From a virus: a DNA stretch of 32,007 nucleotides. Below the pieces are notes generated by a model. The model saw only the letters and a list, made by a program, of their open reading frames with translations, searched no databases and had not been told where the DNA came from. The position numbers and the translations under genes are program-made. Below are positions 21,574 through 26,223 of this stretch, piece by piece. How positions within the stretch are numbered: the first letter of the stretch is position 1; every line of letters starts with the position of its first letter. The DNA is taken from the UHGV virus genome UHGV-1480848; one strand, written 5' to 3'.

Positions 21574-21763
21574 ACCCGCAGCGGGAAAAGCCATCCGTGA
21601 CCCGCTCACGATGAAATTACTGGCTCCGGAGGGAGAAGAAAAGCCCCGTAACAGTTTCTGGATACGTCGCCTTGCAGCCGGTGATGTGGTTGAAGTCGGG
21701 AGCACCGAAAACACGGCGGATGATACCGACGCTGCGCCGAAAAAACGGAGTAAATCGAAATGA
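21557..21763 (+). CDS. Mu gp38-like small protein
   Basis: 68 aa immediately before the sheath gene; Lys-rich C-terminus. Confidence 0.55.
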
Positions 21764-23247
21764 GCGATATTTCATTTAACGCGATCCCGTCAGATGTTCG
21801 CGTTCCTCTGACGTATATCGAATTTGATAACAGCAATGCCGTCAGCGGAACACCGGCTCCCCGCCAGCGCGTGCTGATGTTCGGGCAAAGCGGAAGTAAA
21901 GCCAGTGCCGCACCGAACGTGCCTGTCCGTATCCGTTCCGGCTCACAGGCCAGTGCGGCATTTGGTCAGGGTTCCATGCTGGCACTGATGGCAGATGCAT
22001 TCCTGAACGCTAACCGCGTGGCGGAGCTGTGGTGTATCCCGCAGGGAAACGGCACCGGTAATGCTGCTGTCGGTGAAATCTCACTGTCAGGAACTGCAGG
22101 CGAAAACGGCTCGCTTGTGACCTATATTGCCGGTCAGCGACTGGCGATATCCGTCGCAGCAGGTACAAAAGGGGCTGCGCTGGCTGACCTACTGGTTGCC
22201 CGAATCAAAGGCCAGCCGGATTTACCGGTGACGGCAGAAGTTCGCGCAGACAGCGGAGATGATGATACCCATGCGGACGTGGTTCTGAGTGCAAAATTTA
22301 CGGGTGCATTATCTGCCGTGGATGTGCGCTGGAACTATTACGCGGGTGAAACCACCCCTTACGGGATTATCACGGCATTCAAAGCCGCCTCCGGGAAAAA
22401 TGGCAACCCGGATATCAGCGCAAGTATCGCGGGAATGGGCGATCTGCAATACAAATATATTGTGATGCCCTATACCGATGAACCGAACCTGAATCTGTTA
22501 CGCACTGAATTGCAGGAACGCTGGGGACCGGTCAATCAGGCTGATGGCTTTGCTGTGACAGTGCTGTCCGGCACGTATGGGGACATTTCCACGTTTGGTG
22601 TCAGCCGTAATGACCATCTGATTTCCTGTATGGGGATTGCCGGTGCACCGGAACCGTCATATCTGTACGCCGCCACACTGTGTGCCGTTGCCAGCCAGGC
22701 GCTTTCCATCGACCCGGCGCGTCCACTCCAGACGCTGACGTTGCCCGGAAGAATGCCGCCTGCGGTGGGGGATCGTTTCACCTGGTCAGAACGTAATGCG
22801 CTGCTGTTTGACGGCATCTCCACGTTTAACGTGAATGATGGTGGTGAAATGCAGATTGAACGCATGATCACGATGTACCGCACAAACAAGTACGGTGACA
22901 GCGATCCGTCTTATCTGAACGTGAATACCATCGCCACGCTGAGTTATCTGCGTTATTCGCTGCGAACCCGCATCACGCAGAAATTCCCGAACTACAAGCT
23001 GGCAAGTGATGGCACCCGCTTTGCCACCGGTCAGGCCGTGGTGACGCCATCCGTGATCAAAACGGAGCTGCTGGCACTGTTTGAAGAATGGGAAAACGCC
23101 GGACTGGTCGAGGATTTCGACACGTTCAAAGAGGAGCTGTATGTGGCACGTAACAAGGACGACAAAGACCGTCTTGATGTGCTGTGTGGCCCGAATCTGA
23201 TTAACCAGTTCCGCATTTTCGCGGCACAAGTTCAGTTCATTCTGTAA
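21760..23247 (+). CDS. L: Contractile tail sheath protein
   Basis: 495 aa; size and position before the tube gene. Confidence 0.88.
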
Positions 23248-23256
23248 GGAGCATTT

Positions 23257-23613
23257 ATGGCTGGAAATCAGCGTCAGGGGGTGGCGTTCATCCGTGTCAA
23301 TGGCATGGAGCTTGAAACGATGGAAGGTGCCTCCTTCACACCTTCCGGCATCACCCGTGAAGAAGTGACCGGCTCGCGGGTTTATGGCTGGAAAGGTAAA
23401 CCACGTGCCGCAAAGCTGGAATGCAAAATTCCGGGCGGTGGTGATATCGGTCTGGATGAAATCATCGGCTGGGAAAACATCACGGCAGAGTTTCAGGCAG
23501 ACACCGGTGAAACCTGGATGATGGCGAATGCCTGGCAGGCAGATGAACCGAAAAACGACGGCGGCGAAATTTCGCTGGTACTGATGGCAAAACAAAGCAA
23601 ACGCATTGCATAA
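23257..23613 (+). CDS. M: Tail tube protein
   Basis: 118 aa directly after the sheath gene. Confidence 0.8.
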   Translation: MAGNQRQGVAFIRVNGMELETMEGASFTPSGITREEVTGSRVYGWKGKPRAAKLECKIPGGGDIGLDEIIGWENITAEFQADTGETWMMANAWQADEPKNDGGEISLVLMAKQSKRIA

Positions 23614-23622
23614 GGGGAAACA

Positions 23623-24057
23623 ATGGACGAAATGAATTTAGGTCCTGAAGCACAGGAACTGCATGACAGCATTGTGGCAGAAATTCAGTCCGGCGTGCTG
23701 AAACTGAAAGACGGCCTGCCGTTCGGCACCGGTGACGAGACTGAAATGCAGTATGACGTGACACTGCGTGAACTGACCGCAGGCGATCTGATTGATGCCC
23801 AGGCGGCTGCTGAAAAGCTGGTAATGAGCAAGGAAGGCCCGGTGCTGGTCAGTTCCCCGTCCCGGATGGGACTGGAAATGCTGCGCCGACAGATTGCCAG
23901 CGTGGGTTGCATCAAAGGCCCGTTATCGCTGGCGCTGATGCGCAAGCTGTCTGTTGATGACTTCCAGCGTCTGTCGCTGGCTACAGAGATGCACGACATG
24001 GCTGTGGCGGCATCGCTGACGCAAGAACGGGGGCGAGTGGCTGCGGTGCCGGAATGA
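23623..24057 (+). CDS. Tail assembly chaperone
   Basis: 144 aa acidic protein between tube and tape-measure genes. Confidence 0.65.
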   Translation: MDEMNLGPEAQELHDSIVAEIQSGVLKLKDGLPFGTGDETEMQYDVTLRELTAGDLIDAQAAAEKLVMSKEGPVLVSSPSRMGLEMLRRQIASVGCIKGPLSLALMRKLSVDDFQRLSLATEMHDMAVAASLTQERGRVAAVPE

Positions 24058-24201
24058 TATTGAGAAAGCGGCGACAGCGATTGGCGTTATTCTGAAAAGT
24101 GGCCCGGAATGGGCCTTGTCTCTCCCGCTGTCCCGCTTTTTCCGGCACTGCCAGCAGGCTAAAACCCTCTCTCAATATCACCGTTAAATCAGGAAATCTC
24201 T

Positions 24202-26223
24202 ATGACCGGGAAACGCTTAAAGGCGTCTGTCATTATTGACCTTAATGGCAATCTTTCCCGGCGTTCCCGCCAGTATTCGAACCAGATAAACGCCCTGTCC
24301 CGTAGCGGGCAAAGTTCCCTGCGTGCCCTGCGTATGGAGGTTGTGCGCGTTTCTGGTGCCATTGACAGAATGGGTTCACTGTCAACCCGTACATTCCGAA
24401 TGCTGTCAGCCGGGGCGCTGGGTATCGCTGGTGTGGGTTACACCGCCAATAAACTGTTTATTGGTGCAGCCGCCCAGCGTGAGCAGCAAATTATCGCCAT
24501 GAACTCGCTGTATCACGGCGATAAGGTCAGAGCGCAGGCCATGATGGCCTGGGCGAAGCAGAACGCGAAGGACACCACGTGGGGGCTGAGTGGTGTTCTG
24601 GATGAGATCCGTTCGTCGAAAGGCTTCGGCATGACGGATGAACAGACGAAACAGTTCATCACCATGTTGCAGGATCAGGGGGCCATGCACGGCTGGGATT
24701 TACCCACTGCACAGGGTGCCTCACTGCAACTGAAACAGATGTTTGCCCGCCAGCAAATCACGGCGGCGGATGCCAACCTGCTGACCGGTTACGGTATCAA
24801 CGTTTATCAGGCGCTGGCGGATGCAACGGGAACGGACGTTAAAAAAATCCGTGATCTGGGTACAAAGGGCAAGCTGGGCATGAAATCCATTCTGACGGTA
24901 TTCAGAACGCTGTCAGAACAGTCAAAAGGTGCACAGGCCAGTGCGATGAACTCCTGGGACGGGATGTTCGCCCAGATGGAAGCTAACCTGCTTGAATTTC
25001 GCATAAAGGTGGCAAACAGCGGCCCCTTTGAAGAAATCAAGAACGAGATGCGCCGGGTGCTTAACTGGCACGACATGGCGGATAAATCCGGGGAACTTGA
25101 CGCACTGGCAGAAAACATTGGTCAGAAATTTCTGACCACGTTCAGAACGGTAAAAATCGCGGCGCAGGAATTATGGCGCTGGCTGAAACCGGGTAAAGAT
25201 GCGCTGGCATGGGTTGACCAGAATATTGTCAGCCTGAAAAAACTGGCTGCTGTTCTGGTGTCTGTCTGGCTTGCCAATAAAGCCCTGAGAGCAGGCTGGG
25301 CTGTGGCAAAACCCTCATGGCAGGTTGCCAGTTATCCGTTTAAAACCGGACGTCGTATGTGGCGCTGGATGCGGAACCGCAAACGTGGGCAGGCAGGTCT
25401 GCCGGTCCCGGATGCCATGACGTCTGAGACGCTGTTGCAGGGTATCGGCATTCAGCGTGTGTTTGTCATCAACTGGCCCCGTGGATTTGGTGGCTACGGG
25501 AGTGGCGGCGGTCGTCGCGGACGGAGCGGCAGAAGAATGGCCCCGCTGTTACCACGCCCTGTACTGGCATTACCCCCACCCGGCGTACCGGTAACGGCAC
25601 GGCCTGCACCATTACCTTTAGCCGGTAAATCCGGTCTTCTGAGCAGGCTTGCAGGCAGTGCTGCCGGGCAACTGGTTACGGGAACGGTCGGAAAGCTGGC
25701 TGATGCCGGGCGTGCTGTTGGCGGGTGGTTTTCCGGTATCGGAAACAAACTTGCAGGCAGTGCGATCGGTCGGGTTGTGACAAAAGGTGCCGGGGCGCTG
25801 GGCTGGATGGGGAAAGGTGCCGGTCGTGCGTTGTCACGTCTGGGTGGCCCGGTAATGGGGGCACTCCAGCTTGCCCCCGTCCTGATGGATGAACAGGCGT
25901 CAACCCATGAAAAAGCAGGCGCAATTGGCAGTACAGCCGGTGCATGGCTCGGCGGTGCCGTTGGCAGCCTTGCCGGACCGCTGGGTACGGTTGCCGGTGC
26001 CACGCTGGGCAGTGTCGCCGGCGAGTATCTGGGCGGTTTTGTAACCGACCTGTATCAGAAATGGACGGCCACGGATAAGGAACCGCAGGAGCAAAAAGTC
26101 AATGCGGAAGCCTCGTTGCGCGTCGAACTCGGCGAGGGGTTACGTCTGACCAGTTCCCGCGTCACCGAGGATGGTATGGGGCTGAATATTTACGCGGGAG
26201 ATAACTACATTACAGGCTGGTAA
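24202..26223 (+). CDS. Tail tape measure protein
   Basis: 673 aa; helical N-terminal half; Gly/Arg-rich [18 protein letters not shown] and Pro-rich segment; Gly/Ala-rich TM-like C-terminal region. Confidence 0.85.

What the first reader, a model, noticed from the sequence alone, without database searches (positions are those of the whole stretch)
24020..24201. Unexplained 144-bp gap before the tape-measure gene with an open alternative frame
Late genes here mostly overlap or abut, yet 144 bp separate the chaperone stop (24057) from the tape-measure ATG (24202). By hand translation, the frame shifted one nucleotide forward is open from 24020 to a stop at 24185-24187, overlapping the last ~12 chaperone codons across a GGGGG run (24029-24033). 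Tail chaperones are often made with a frameshifted extension. The extension would be short (about 50 aa) and no classic slippery heptamer is visible, so a promoter or RNA structure is an equally valid reading.
Basis: inference. Interest (0 to 1): 0.5.

Follow-up and report, generated by a model that had tools for sequence, protein, structure and literature searches.

The report
Known phage Mu tail-chaperone −2 frameshift

Summary
There is a 144-nt gap (24058-24201), the alternative frame is open from 24020 to 24187, and a GGGGG run lies at 24029-24033.

The window is a Mu/D108-type phage. Window 24022-24197 is base-for-base identical to phage Mu. My conceptual −2 product for Mu is an exact match to Swiss-Prot P0DJY4 (FS-gp41). 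The window's own −2 product is 184/188 identical to it, and the extension is 100% identical.

Comparative evidence:
- 86 of 89 related loci, reaching Vibrio, Aeromonas and Bilophila, keep a G-run plus CGA at the end of the chaperone gene. 81 of them have CGGGGGCGA exactly.
- All 86 have a 40-60-codon ORF in the +1/−2 frame from the site.
- Within the gap, variation follows the codon positions of that frame, and that frame has no stops.

One point goes beyond what I could find in the papers I could read. A conserved long hairpin starts 3 nt after the A-site CGA codon (24040-24053 pairing with 24141-24155). It has compensatory changes and is a candidate 3' stimulator.

No promoter-like site and no Rfam family were found.

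Verdict: already known, low interest.

The parts
23257..23613 (+). Tail tube gene (Mu gp40/M homologue), immediately upstream of the chaperone gene
   Evidence: ORF list. Corresponds to annotated Mu_40 'tail tube protein'.
23623..24057 (+). Tail assembly chaperone gp41, the zero-frame product (144 aa)
   Evidence: ORF list. Pfam PF23746 Gp41_Mu, E=1.1e-33. PHROG 508 tail assembly chaperone, E=7.7e-47. Corresponds to annotated Mu_41.
24028..24036 (+). Shift site CGG_GGG_CGA. The G5 run is 24029-24033, the proposed P-site codon is GGG 24031-24033, and the A-site codon is CGA 24034-24036.
   Evidence: Sequence. Identical to Mu. CGGGGGCGA is present in 81 of 89 related loci, and CGA is a zero-frame codon in 84. 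CGA makes up 42 of 690 Arg codons in the window's long ORFs.
24032..24187 (+). Extension read after the −2 shift (GGC GAG TGG ... CGT TAA; 51 codons plus stop). The full product FS-gp41 is join(23623..24033, 24032..24187), 188 aa.
   Evidence: Translation. Extension 100% identical to Swiss-Prot P0DJY4. PHROG 12783, E=5e-30. Coding signature and no stops in 20 relatives. Homologous 47-51-aa extensions across clades with an invariant Pro.
24040..24053 (+). 5' arm of the conserved long-range stem. It starts 3 nt after the A-site CGA codon and 6 nt after the P-site GGG.
   Evidence: MFE fold. RNAalifold on 20 relatives. 98.1% of cells paired against 21-52% for slid controls, with 3 compensatory pairs. 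Duplex −28.3 kcal/mol against −13.6±3.4, and 0 of 1095 control positions as good.
24141..24155 (+). 3' arm of the long-range stem, with a one-base bulge at 24151 or 24152
24064..24140 (+). Inner part of the hairpin: helix 24064-24079 with 24126-24140, and apical hairpin 24101-24105 with 24111-24115
   Evidence: for coordinates; the inner helix is 80% paired with 8 of 15 pairs changed on both sides, and the apical hairpin is 95% paired. The apical hairpin also appears as a terminator-like hit without a proper T tract.
24191..24194 (+). AGGA ribosome-binding site of the tape-measure gene, 3 nt after the extension's stop codon
   Evidence: Sequence. Corresponds to the annotated RBS of Mu_42, record 24120-24123, offset +71.
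24202..26223 (+). Tape measure protein gene (Mu gp42 homologue)
   Evidence: ORF list. Annotated Mu_42 / D108 gene 42.

Best explanation
This is the programmed ribosomal frameshift site of the phage Mu tail assembly chaperone (gp41 / FS-gp41), the Mu counterpart of lambda G/GT and P2 E/E+E'.

Most ribosomes translate 23623-24057 and stop, giving the 144-aa gp41. A minority change frame on CGG_GGG_CGA (24028-24036) and read on to TAA at 24185-24187. This gives a 188-aa protein whose last 51 residues are encoded in the apparent gap.

Proposed mechanism:
- Peptidyl-tRNA(Gly) sits on GGG (24031-24033).
- The little-used, probably slowly decoded CGA codon waits in the A site.
- The tRNA slips back two bases onto GGG (24029-24031), where it re-pairs perfectly.
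- Decoding resumes at GGC (24032), giving the junction ...QERG-GEWLRC....

A stable conserved hairpin begins 3 nt after the A-site codon. It probably impedes the ribosome, and its short spacer would favour −2 over −1.

By analogy with lambda gpG/gpGT, the common gp41 part would coat the tape measure protein. The extension would then recruit the tail tube subunit, with the low frameshift rate setting the ratio of the two proteins.

Basis of each step:
- Shown here: sequence identity to Mu, coding nature of the shifted frame, and conservation of both the frame and the shift motif.
- Taken from annotation and literature: the shift occurs in Mu and is −2.
- Inferred: which tRNA slips, the role of CGA, the role of the hairpin, and the function of the extension.
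For: Identity with the documented Mu site:
- The window is 99.1% identical to D108 and 96.6% to Mu over 23257-24500.
- Window 24022-24197 is identical to Mu.
- AF083977 carries the joined CDS Mu_56, 'verified -2 translational frameshift in PMID 15469818; tail assembly chaperone frameshift product', at the matching coordinates.
- My conceptual −2 product for Mu is an exact match to Swiss-Prot P0DJY4, 'Probable tail assembly protein FS-gp41'. The +1 version is not on record.
- The window's −2 product is 184/188 identical to P0DJY4, and all four differences lie upstream of the site.

Literature:
- Mu is cited as a natural case of −2 frameshifting, with efficiency about 2.2% (PMC3498833; PMC5009743; PMC2628397).
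- A 10-mer of the Mu site gave 14% shifting in a purified translation system (bioRxiv 10.1101/2025.10.02.679949).

Conservation:
- 86 of 89 related loci have a G-run plus CGA followed by a 40-60-codon ORF in this frame. The −1 frame extension is mostly short and of variable length: 1-29 codons in most loci, 90 in the Bilophila-type loci.
- RGR is nearly invariant in the zero-frame protein.
- In the gap, entropy by codon position of the shifted frame is 0.59/0.26/1.07. Synonymous to nonsynonymous differences are 159:192, against 27:380 and 84:300 in the other two frames. The shifted frame has zero stops in 20 of 20 sequences.
- The extension peptides form a family: PHROG 12783, 47-51 aa with an invariant Pro.
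- There is no ATG/GTG/TTG in the shifted frame before 24116, so independent initiation is unlikely.

Hairpin.
Lambda analogy for function: PMC5009743.
Against: - Nothing was measured for this particular phage. The claim rests on sequence identity with Mu.
- I could not read Xu et al. 2004 itself. The −2 direction and the 'verified' status therefore come from the GenBank note, Swiss-Prot and citing papers.
- The two public records disagree on the junction residue: P0DJY4 has RGGEW and UIW09302.1 has RGREW. The exact slipping tRNA is therefore not settled by what I can see.
- Reporter assays cannot separate −2 from +1.
- The hairpin's role is unproven. The 10-mer alone already shifts in vitro. 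The plain MFE z-scores are weak (0.05 for 77 nt, −1.88 for 202 nt). A second measure, the unwinding barrier, gives only p=0.11 for the window.
Confidence: 0.93

Rival explanations
1. The same site and the same extension, but the ribosome shifts +1 rather than −2. This would give a 187-aa product with the junction ...QERGEWLRC....
For: +1 and −2 reach the same frame, and reporters cannot tell them apart. Relatives with only four Gs (CAG_GGG_CGA in L049/L050, UCG_GGG_CGA in L051) cannot re-pair perfectly at −2, so a +1 route is plausible in those phages. A slow A-site codon is a classic +1 stimulus (established knowledge of RF2- and Ty1-type sites).
Against: The GenBank note, Swiss-Prot and several papers state −2 for Mu. 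Five Gs give perfect re-pairing at −2, while GGC at +1 mismatches. The G5 run is kept in 81 of 89 loci.
Confidence: 0.04
2. The shifted-frame ORF is a separate small gene, as in the D108 annotation '41.5', translated from its own start.
For: D108 GQ357916 annotates a 48-aa CDS 41.5 here, and PHROG 12783 collects such calls. The G run could act as a Shine-Dalgarno-like sequence 7 nt before CTG 24041, which is TTG in some relatives.
Against: There is no ATG/GTG/TTG in this frame before 24116 in the window. Distant clades have no start codon at an equivalent place, yet the ORF always begins at or upstream of the G run, and residue conservation starts right at the site (G-E/D...). The fused product is reported as verified in Mu.
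Confidence: 0.02
3. The gap is non-coding and holds a promoter, a terminator or a regulatory RNA for the tape-measure gene. Alternatively, the long product comes from RNA polymerase slippage on the G run.
For: A conserved RNA hairpin fills the region. A terminator-like stem was flagged at 24101-24115. Insertion of two Gs by the polymerase would give the same protein as a −2 shift.
Against: There are 0 promoter-like sites and no Rfam match. The flagged stem lacks a real T tract. The region shows a third-position variation pattern and 0 stops in the shifted frame across 20 relatives. Transcriptional slippage is known for long A/T runs, not for five Gs (established knowledge). A purified translation system shifts on the 10-mer, although that reporter was also transcribed in vitro.
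Confidence: 0.01

Closest known systems
Phage Mu gp41 / FS-gp41 (Mup41; Swiss-Prot P0DJY4; GenBank Mu_41/Mu_56), −2 programmed frameshift (Xu, Hendrix & Duda 2004, PMID 15469818)
   Same: Same genes in the same order (sheath, tube, chaperone, tape measure). The shift region and extension are identical at the nucleotide level, and the conceptual product is 98% identical.
   Different: Four amino-acid substitutions in the gp41 part. The window is closer to D108 (99.1%) than to Mu (96.6%). In the D108 record the extension is annotated as a separate gene, 41.5.
Lambda gpG / gpGT (−1 frameshift at G_GGA_AAG)
   Same: Position between the major tail gene and the tape measure gene. [quoted passage not shown] Two products with a shared N-terminal part, and an assembly chaperone role (PMC5009743).
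   Different: Direction is −1 with tandem slippage on a heptamer. No detectable sequence similarity. The tail is non-contractile.
P2 gpE / gpE+E' (−1 frameshift on a T run) and Pfam Phage_TAC_7 (PF10109)
   Same: Contractile-tail phage with the same gene order. gp41 gives a weak hit to PF10109, 'Phage tail assembly chaperone proteins, E, or 41 or 14' (E=7.2e-5, below the cut-off).
   Different: −1 shift on a T-rich heptamer (my own knowledge, plus PMC5009743 for the efficiency). The extension is unrelated in sequence.
Arterivirus nsp2TF −2 frameshift
   Same: One of the few other natural −2 events. −1 and −2 compete at one site, and the −1 product terminates early (PMC5009743). Here the −1 frame ends after 20 codons at 24093-24095.
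   Different: A eukaryotic RNA virus. The shift is stimulated by a viral protein bound downstream, not by a hairpin, and the shift site is different.

Membership tests
Mu-type tail chaperone −2 frameshift (gp41 / FS-gp41) | Upstream ORF is a Gp41_Mu-family chaperone lying between the tail tube and tape measure genes | tested here: met
   PF23746 E=1.1e-33, above the cut-off. PHROG 508. Gene order.
Mu-type tail chaperone −2 frameshift (gp41 / FS-gp41) | [quoted passage not shown] | tested here: met
   24028-24036. Identical to Mu. Present in 81 of 89 relatives.
Mu-type tail chaperone −2 frameshift (gp41 / FS-gp41) | Open +1/−2 frame from the motif to just before the tape measure start, encoding the conserved extension of about 50 aa | tested here: met
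   24032-24187, with the stop 14 nt before the ATG. Extension 100% identical to P0DJY4. Coding signature.
Mu-type tail chaperone −2 frameshift (gp41 / FS-gp41) | The fused 188-aa protein is actually made, by a −2 rather than a +1 shift | not testable with these tools
   Known only from the annotation note and citing papers for Mu. The primary paper is not held. The junction residue differs between P0DJY4 and UIW09302.1.
G/GT-type conserved tail assembly frameshift of long-tailed phages (Xu et al. 2004) | Two overlapping ORFs between the major tail/tube gene and the tape measure gene. The second ORF lacks its own start and is reached by a shift near the end of the first. | tested here: met
   No start codon in the shifted frame before 24116.
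G/GT-type conserved tail assembly frameshift of long-tailed phages (Xu et al. 2004) | Canonical −1 slippery heptamer X_XXY_YYZ | tested here: not met
   No such heptamer in the overlap. This is the known Mu exception, so it separates the Mu subtype from the −1 majority and does not exclude the functional class.
G/GT-type conserved tail assembly frameshift of long-tailed phages (Xu et al. 2004) | Both products are needed for tail assembly and are absent from virions, and their ratio is set by shift efficiency | not testable with these tools
   Reported for lambda (PMC5009743). Inferred for Mu.

The most novel reading that the evidence does not exclude
The conserved hairpin is a functional 3' stimulator of the frameshift. 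It spans 24036-24160, and its main stem (24040-24053 with 24141-24155) starts only 3 nt after the A-site codon. The unusually short spacer is what steers the ribosome to −2 instead of −1.

Together with CGG_GGG_CGA, this would form a frameshift cassette conserved from Enterobacteriaceae to Vibrio, Aeromonas and Bilophila prophages. Natural 4-G and 7-G variants would use other routes.

I found no description of such a stimulator for Mu in the papers I could read, but the primary paper (Xu et al. 2004) was not available to me, so it may already be described.
Probability: 0.3. Interest if true: 0.4.

Novelty: already known. Interest (0 to 1): 0.12.

Why it matters
For annotation, the region 24058-24187 should not be left as intergenic or called as a separate small gene. 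The D108 record does the latter, and PHROG 12783 reflects the same practice. It should be annotated as join(23623..24033, 24032..24187), tail assembly chaperone frameshift product.

Biologically this is a textbook case: the first documented natural −2 programmed frameshift, which sets the ratio of two tail assembly chaperones.

The modest added value here has three parts:
- The shift motif and the extension are conserved far beyond Mu.
- There is covariation evidence for a downstream hairpin with a short spacer. This gives a testable explanation for why this site shifts −2.
- The two public Mu records disagree on the junction residue.

Tried and rejected
- **Promoter in the gap:** 0 sigma-70-like sites, against 0.8 expected. 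Rejected, with the caveat that Mu late promoters are activator-dependent and the scan would not recognise them.
- **Terminator:** the hit at 24101-24115 has no real T tract and lies inside a coding, conserved hairpin. Rejected.
- **Known RNA family:** no Rfam match at E≤1.
- **−1 frameshift:** the −1 frame closes after 20 codons at 24093-24095. In most relatives its extension is short and variable in length. Rejected as the selected product, although some −1 slippage on the G run may occur as a by-product.
- **Pfam for the extension:** no family. Only PHROG 12783, function unknown.
- **Local stem-loop right after the site (77 nt):** z = 0.05, not notable. The relevant pairing is long-range.
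- **Primary paper, PMID 15469818:** not held. A text search for the motif GGGGGCGA with 'frameshift' returned only irrelevant papers.
- **Structure prediction of the fusion protein:** not run. A monomer model would not test the proposed partner binding.

Full report
**1. The observation**

- The chaperone ORF runs 23623-24057 and ends with TGA at 24055-24057.
- The tape measure ATG is at 24202, so 144 nt (24058-24201) look unassigned.
- The frame shifted one base forward has a stop at 24017-24019 and then none until TAA at 24185-24187.
- GGGGG occupies 24029-24033.
- There is no X_XXY_YYZ heptamer.

In isolation the open frame is only moderately unusual. The same frame has 11 stops in the 132 chaperone codons upstream and none in the following 55. 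GGGGGCGA occurs once in the window, against 1.36 expected. GGGGG runs are not rare in absolute terms (38 in the window), though they are fewer than the 72.8±9.5 seen in shuffles.

**2. What the window is**

Megablast of 23257-24500 against phage records gives 14 hits, all Mu-type phages. D108 is 99.1% identical and Mu 96.6%. The local gene order is sheath (21760-23247), tube (23257-23613), chaperone gp41 (23623-24057), then tape measure (24202-26223).

**3. The feature is annotated and published**

The Mu record AF083977.1 carries two CDSs that start at the same ATG. One is Mu_41, the 144-aa chaperone. The other is Mu_56, a CDS joined from two pieces and spanning record 23552-24116. Its note reads 'verified -2 translational frameshift in PMID 15469818; tail assembly chaperone frameshift product'. 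With the +71 offset this maps to window 23623-24187.

Window 24022-24197 is identical to Mu base for base.

I built the conceptual −2, +1 and −1 products.
- The Mu −2 product (188 aa, junction QERGGEWLRC) is an exact match to Swiss-Prot P0DJY4, 'Probable tail assembly protein FS-gp41'.
- The +1 version is not on record.
- The window's −2 product is 184/188 identical to P0DJY4. All four differences lie upstream of the site, and the 51-residue extension is identical.

Papers I could read state the following:
- Mu uses a −2 shift for this protein (PMC2628397; PMC5009743; PMC4378225).
- It was the only known natural −2 case in 2012, with an efficiency of about 2.2% (PMC3498833).
- A 10-mer of the site gives 14% shifting in a purified system (bioRxiv 10.1101/2025.10.02.679949).

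The primary paper, Xu, Hendrix & Duda 2004, is not in the library.

**4. Independent comparative test**

I collected 13 loci from bacterial genomes and 74 from IMG/VR, using an alignment of gp41 homologues. With the Mu and D108 records (L001, L002) this makes 89 loci.

Results:
- 86 of the 89 loci have a G-run plus CGA near the end of the gp41 homologue, followed by a 40-60-codon ORF in the +1/−2 frame.
- 81 have N-CGGGGGCGA exactly.
- In 84 the CGA is a zero-frame codon.
- This holds down to 43-50% protein identity, in Vibrio, Aliivibrio, Aeromonas, Bilophila and Pluralibacter.
- The three exceptions are a 271-bp fragment (L015) and one decayed Kluyvera prophage seen twice (L005, L042).
- The −1 frame extension is mostly short and of variable length: 1-29 codons in most loci, 90 in the Bilophila-type loci.
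- The zero-frame protein keeps R-G-R at the site: Gly and the second Arg are invariant and the first Arg nearly so.

In 20 enterobacterial sequences, the part of the gap beyond the zero-frame stop shows a clear coding signature in the shifted frame.

| Frame | Synonymous : nonsynonymous codon differences | Stops per sequence |
|---|---|---|
| +1/−2 (shifted) | 159:192 | 0 in all 20 |
| zero | 27:380 | 1-4 |
| −1 | 84:300 | 1-5 |

Mean column entropy by codon position of the shifted frame is 0.59, 0.26 and 1.07.

The extension peptides from all clades are 47-51 aa long. They align with an invariant Pro inside an L-P-[LIV]-x-x-[LF] motif, although overall identity falls to 12-21%. They match PHROG 12783, 'unknown function'.

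**5. Mechanism**

The zero-frame codons are CGG (24028-30), GGG (24031-33) and CGA (24034-36). With GGG in the P site, a two-base backward slip lands the Gly tRNA on GGG (24029-31), where it re-pairs perfectly. The next codon is then GGC (24032). This gives RGGEW, which is the Swiss-Prot junction.

CGA accounts for 42 of 690 Arg codons in the window's long ORFs. It is read through an inosine-adenosine wobble (established knowledge). A slow A site is therefore a plausible contributor. This is inferred, not shown. Its conservation is also explained by dual coding: Arg in one frame and Gly-Glu/Asp in the other.

GenBank UIW09302.1 instead reads RGREW. That places the join after CGA. It may be an annotation convenience, or it may reflect the experimental junction. 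I cannot decide between these from here.

**6. A downstream RNA structure**

The 202 nt around the gap fold into one long irregular hairpin (MFE −76.9 kcal/mol, z = −1.88).

RNAalifold on the 20 enterobacterial sequences independently predicts the same core stem. It pairs alignment columns 27-39 with 129-142, which correspond to window 24040-24052 and 24142-24155.

Counts on that stem:
- 98.1% of cells are paired, against 21-52% when the partner is slid by 1-3 columns.
- 3 of 13 pairs have compensatory changes: C-G to U-A in 4 sequences, G-C to A-U in 3, and G-C to A-U in 1.
- 0 of 500 shuffles reach the observed pairing percentage or covariation score.

Two of these changes alter amino acids in both arms together (Cys to Tyr in the 5' arm with His to Tyr in the 3' arm).

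Counts on the full hairpin:
- 13 pairs changed on both sides, against 6.0±1.3 in shuffles (0 of 500).
- The inner helix (24064-24079 with 24126-24140) contributes 8 of them.

Two energy-based tests gave different strengths:
- Duplex test. I scored the 17 nt starting 6 nt after the P-site codon against the next 134 nt. This gives −28.3 kcal/mol, against −13.6±3.4 at 1095 other positions of the locus, none as good.
- Unwinding barrier. This measures the net energy lost when the first 18 nt after the A-site codon are forced open. It gives only p = 0.11 for the window. It lies above the null mean in 12 of 13 clade representatives, and the combined Fisher p is 1.3e-4.

Distant clades have stems that start 6-10 nt after the P-site codon, but with different architectures.

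The main stem starts 3 nt after the A-site codon. That is shorter than the 5-9 nt typical of −1 sites. Shortening the spacer is reported to raise −2 relative to −1 (PMC5009743). This fits a stimulator that favours −2.

This remains inference, for three reasons:
- The 10-mer alone already shifts in vitro.
- The sequences are related, and both arms are coding.
- I do not know whether the primary paper already discusses a structure.

**7. Function of the product**

In lambda, the shared G part of gpG and gpGT binds the tape measure protein. The T extension binds the major tail subunit. The roughly 30:1 ratio of the two proteins matters for assembly, and neither protein is in the virion (PMC5009743).

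By position and architecture, Mu gp41 and FS-gp41 are the counterparts. The extension would be expected to recruit the tube protein (gene at 23257-23613) onto the chaperone-coated tape measure. This is analogy, not tested here.

**8. Alternatives**

- A separately initiated gene, as D108's '41.5'. This is unlikely. There is no ATG/GTG/TTG in the frame before 24116. There is no conserved start in the distant clades, and residue conservation begins at the site itself.
- A promoter or terminator. No promoter-like site was found, and the one terminator-like hit lacks a T tract and lies in coding sequence.
- A known RNA family. None matched.
- Transcriptional slippage on five Gs. This has no precedent I know of.
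- +1 instead of −2. This cannot be excluded from sequence alone but contradicts the records for Mu. It may apply to the natural 4-G variants.

**9. Verdict**

The feature is the already known Mu gp41/FS-gp41 −2 programmed frameshift, so novelty is nil and interest is low.

The leads worth keeping are the conserved short-spacer hairpin, the breadth of conservation of CGG_GGG_CGA, the natural G-run variants, and the junction discrepancy between the two public records.

Noticed in passing
window 24031-24036 (Mu records P0DJY4 and UIW09302.1): The two public sequences of the Mu frameshift product differ at the junction. Swiss-Prot P0DJY4 reads ...QERGGEWLRC... (slip on GGG), while GenBank UIW09302.1 reads ...QERGREWLRC... 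(join placed after CGA). Both are 188 aa.
   Followed up: partly
L007 (Erwinia tracheiphila ICMP 5845), L005/L042 (Kluyvera YDC799); proteins P0001, P0002, P0047, P0006, P0057: Some genomes and assemblies have only four Gs, so the chaperone and the extension are fused in one frame (187- or 199-aa gene calls, junction RGEW). The Kluyvera copy has a second indel further on. These could be homopolymer sequencing errors or decaying prophages that make only the long form.
   Followed up: partly
L049/L050 (CAG_GGG_CGA), L051 (UCG_GGG_CGA), L006 (CAG_GGG_GGG_CGA): Natural shift-site variants that keep the zero frame. Two types have only 4 Gs, where −2 re-pairing is imperfect and +1 is as plausible. 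One type has 7 Gs. All keep the 50-51-codon extension ORF.
   Followed up: no
window 24041-24187; D108 GQ357916 gene 41.5; PHROG 12783: The D108 record annotates the extension as a free-standing 48-aa gene starting at CTG. A PHROG family of 'unknown function' consists of this extension. This is a recurrent mis-annotation of the frameshift product.
   Followed up: yes
whole window, both strands: GGGGG runs are about half as frequent as in dinucleotide-preserving shuffles (38 against 72.8±9.5). This is possibly avoidance of slippery G runs in coding sequence.
   Followed up: no
L066 about 1912-1940 (alignment A4 columns 96-124), and the related L014: In the Pluralibacter-type clade, the part of the extension ORF encoding the conserved LPLRQL motif forms a perfect 12-bp hairpin (GGAACAGCUGCC / GGCAGCUGUUCC). 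L014 has two compensatory changes in it. The RNA architecture differs from the Mu clade.
   Followed up: partly
window 24033-24095: A −1 slip on the same G run would give a 157-aa product ending ...GASGCGAGMILRKRRQRLALF. One assembly-derived protein (P0005) enters this frame through an upstream indel. The frame is not conserved in relatives.
   Followed up: yes
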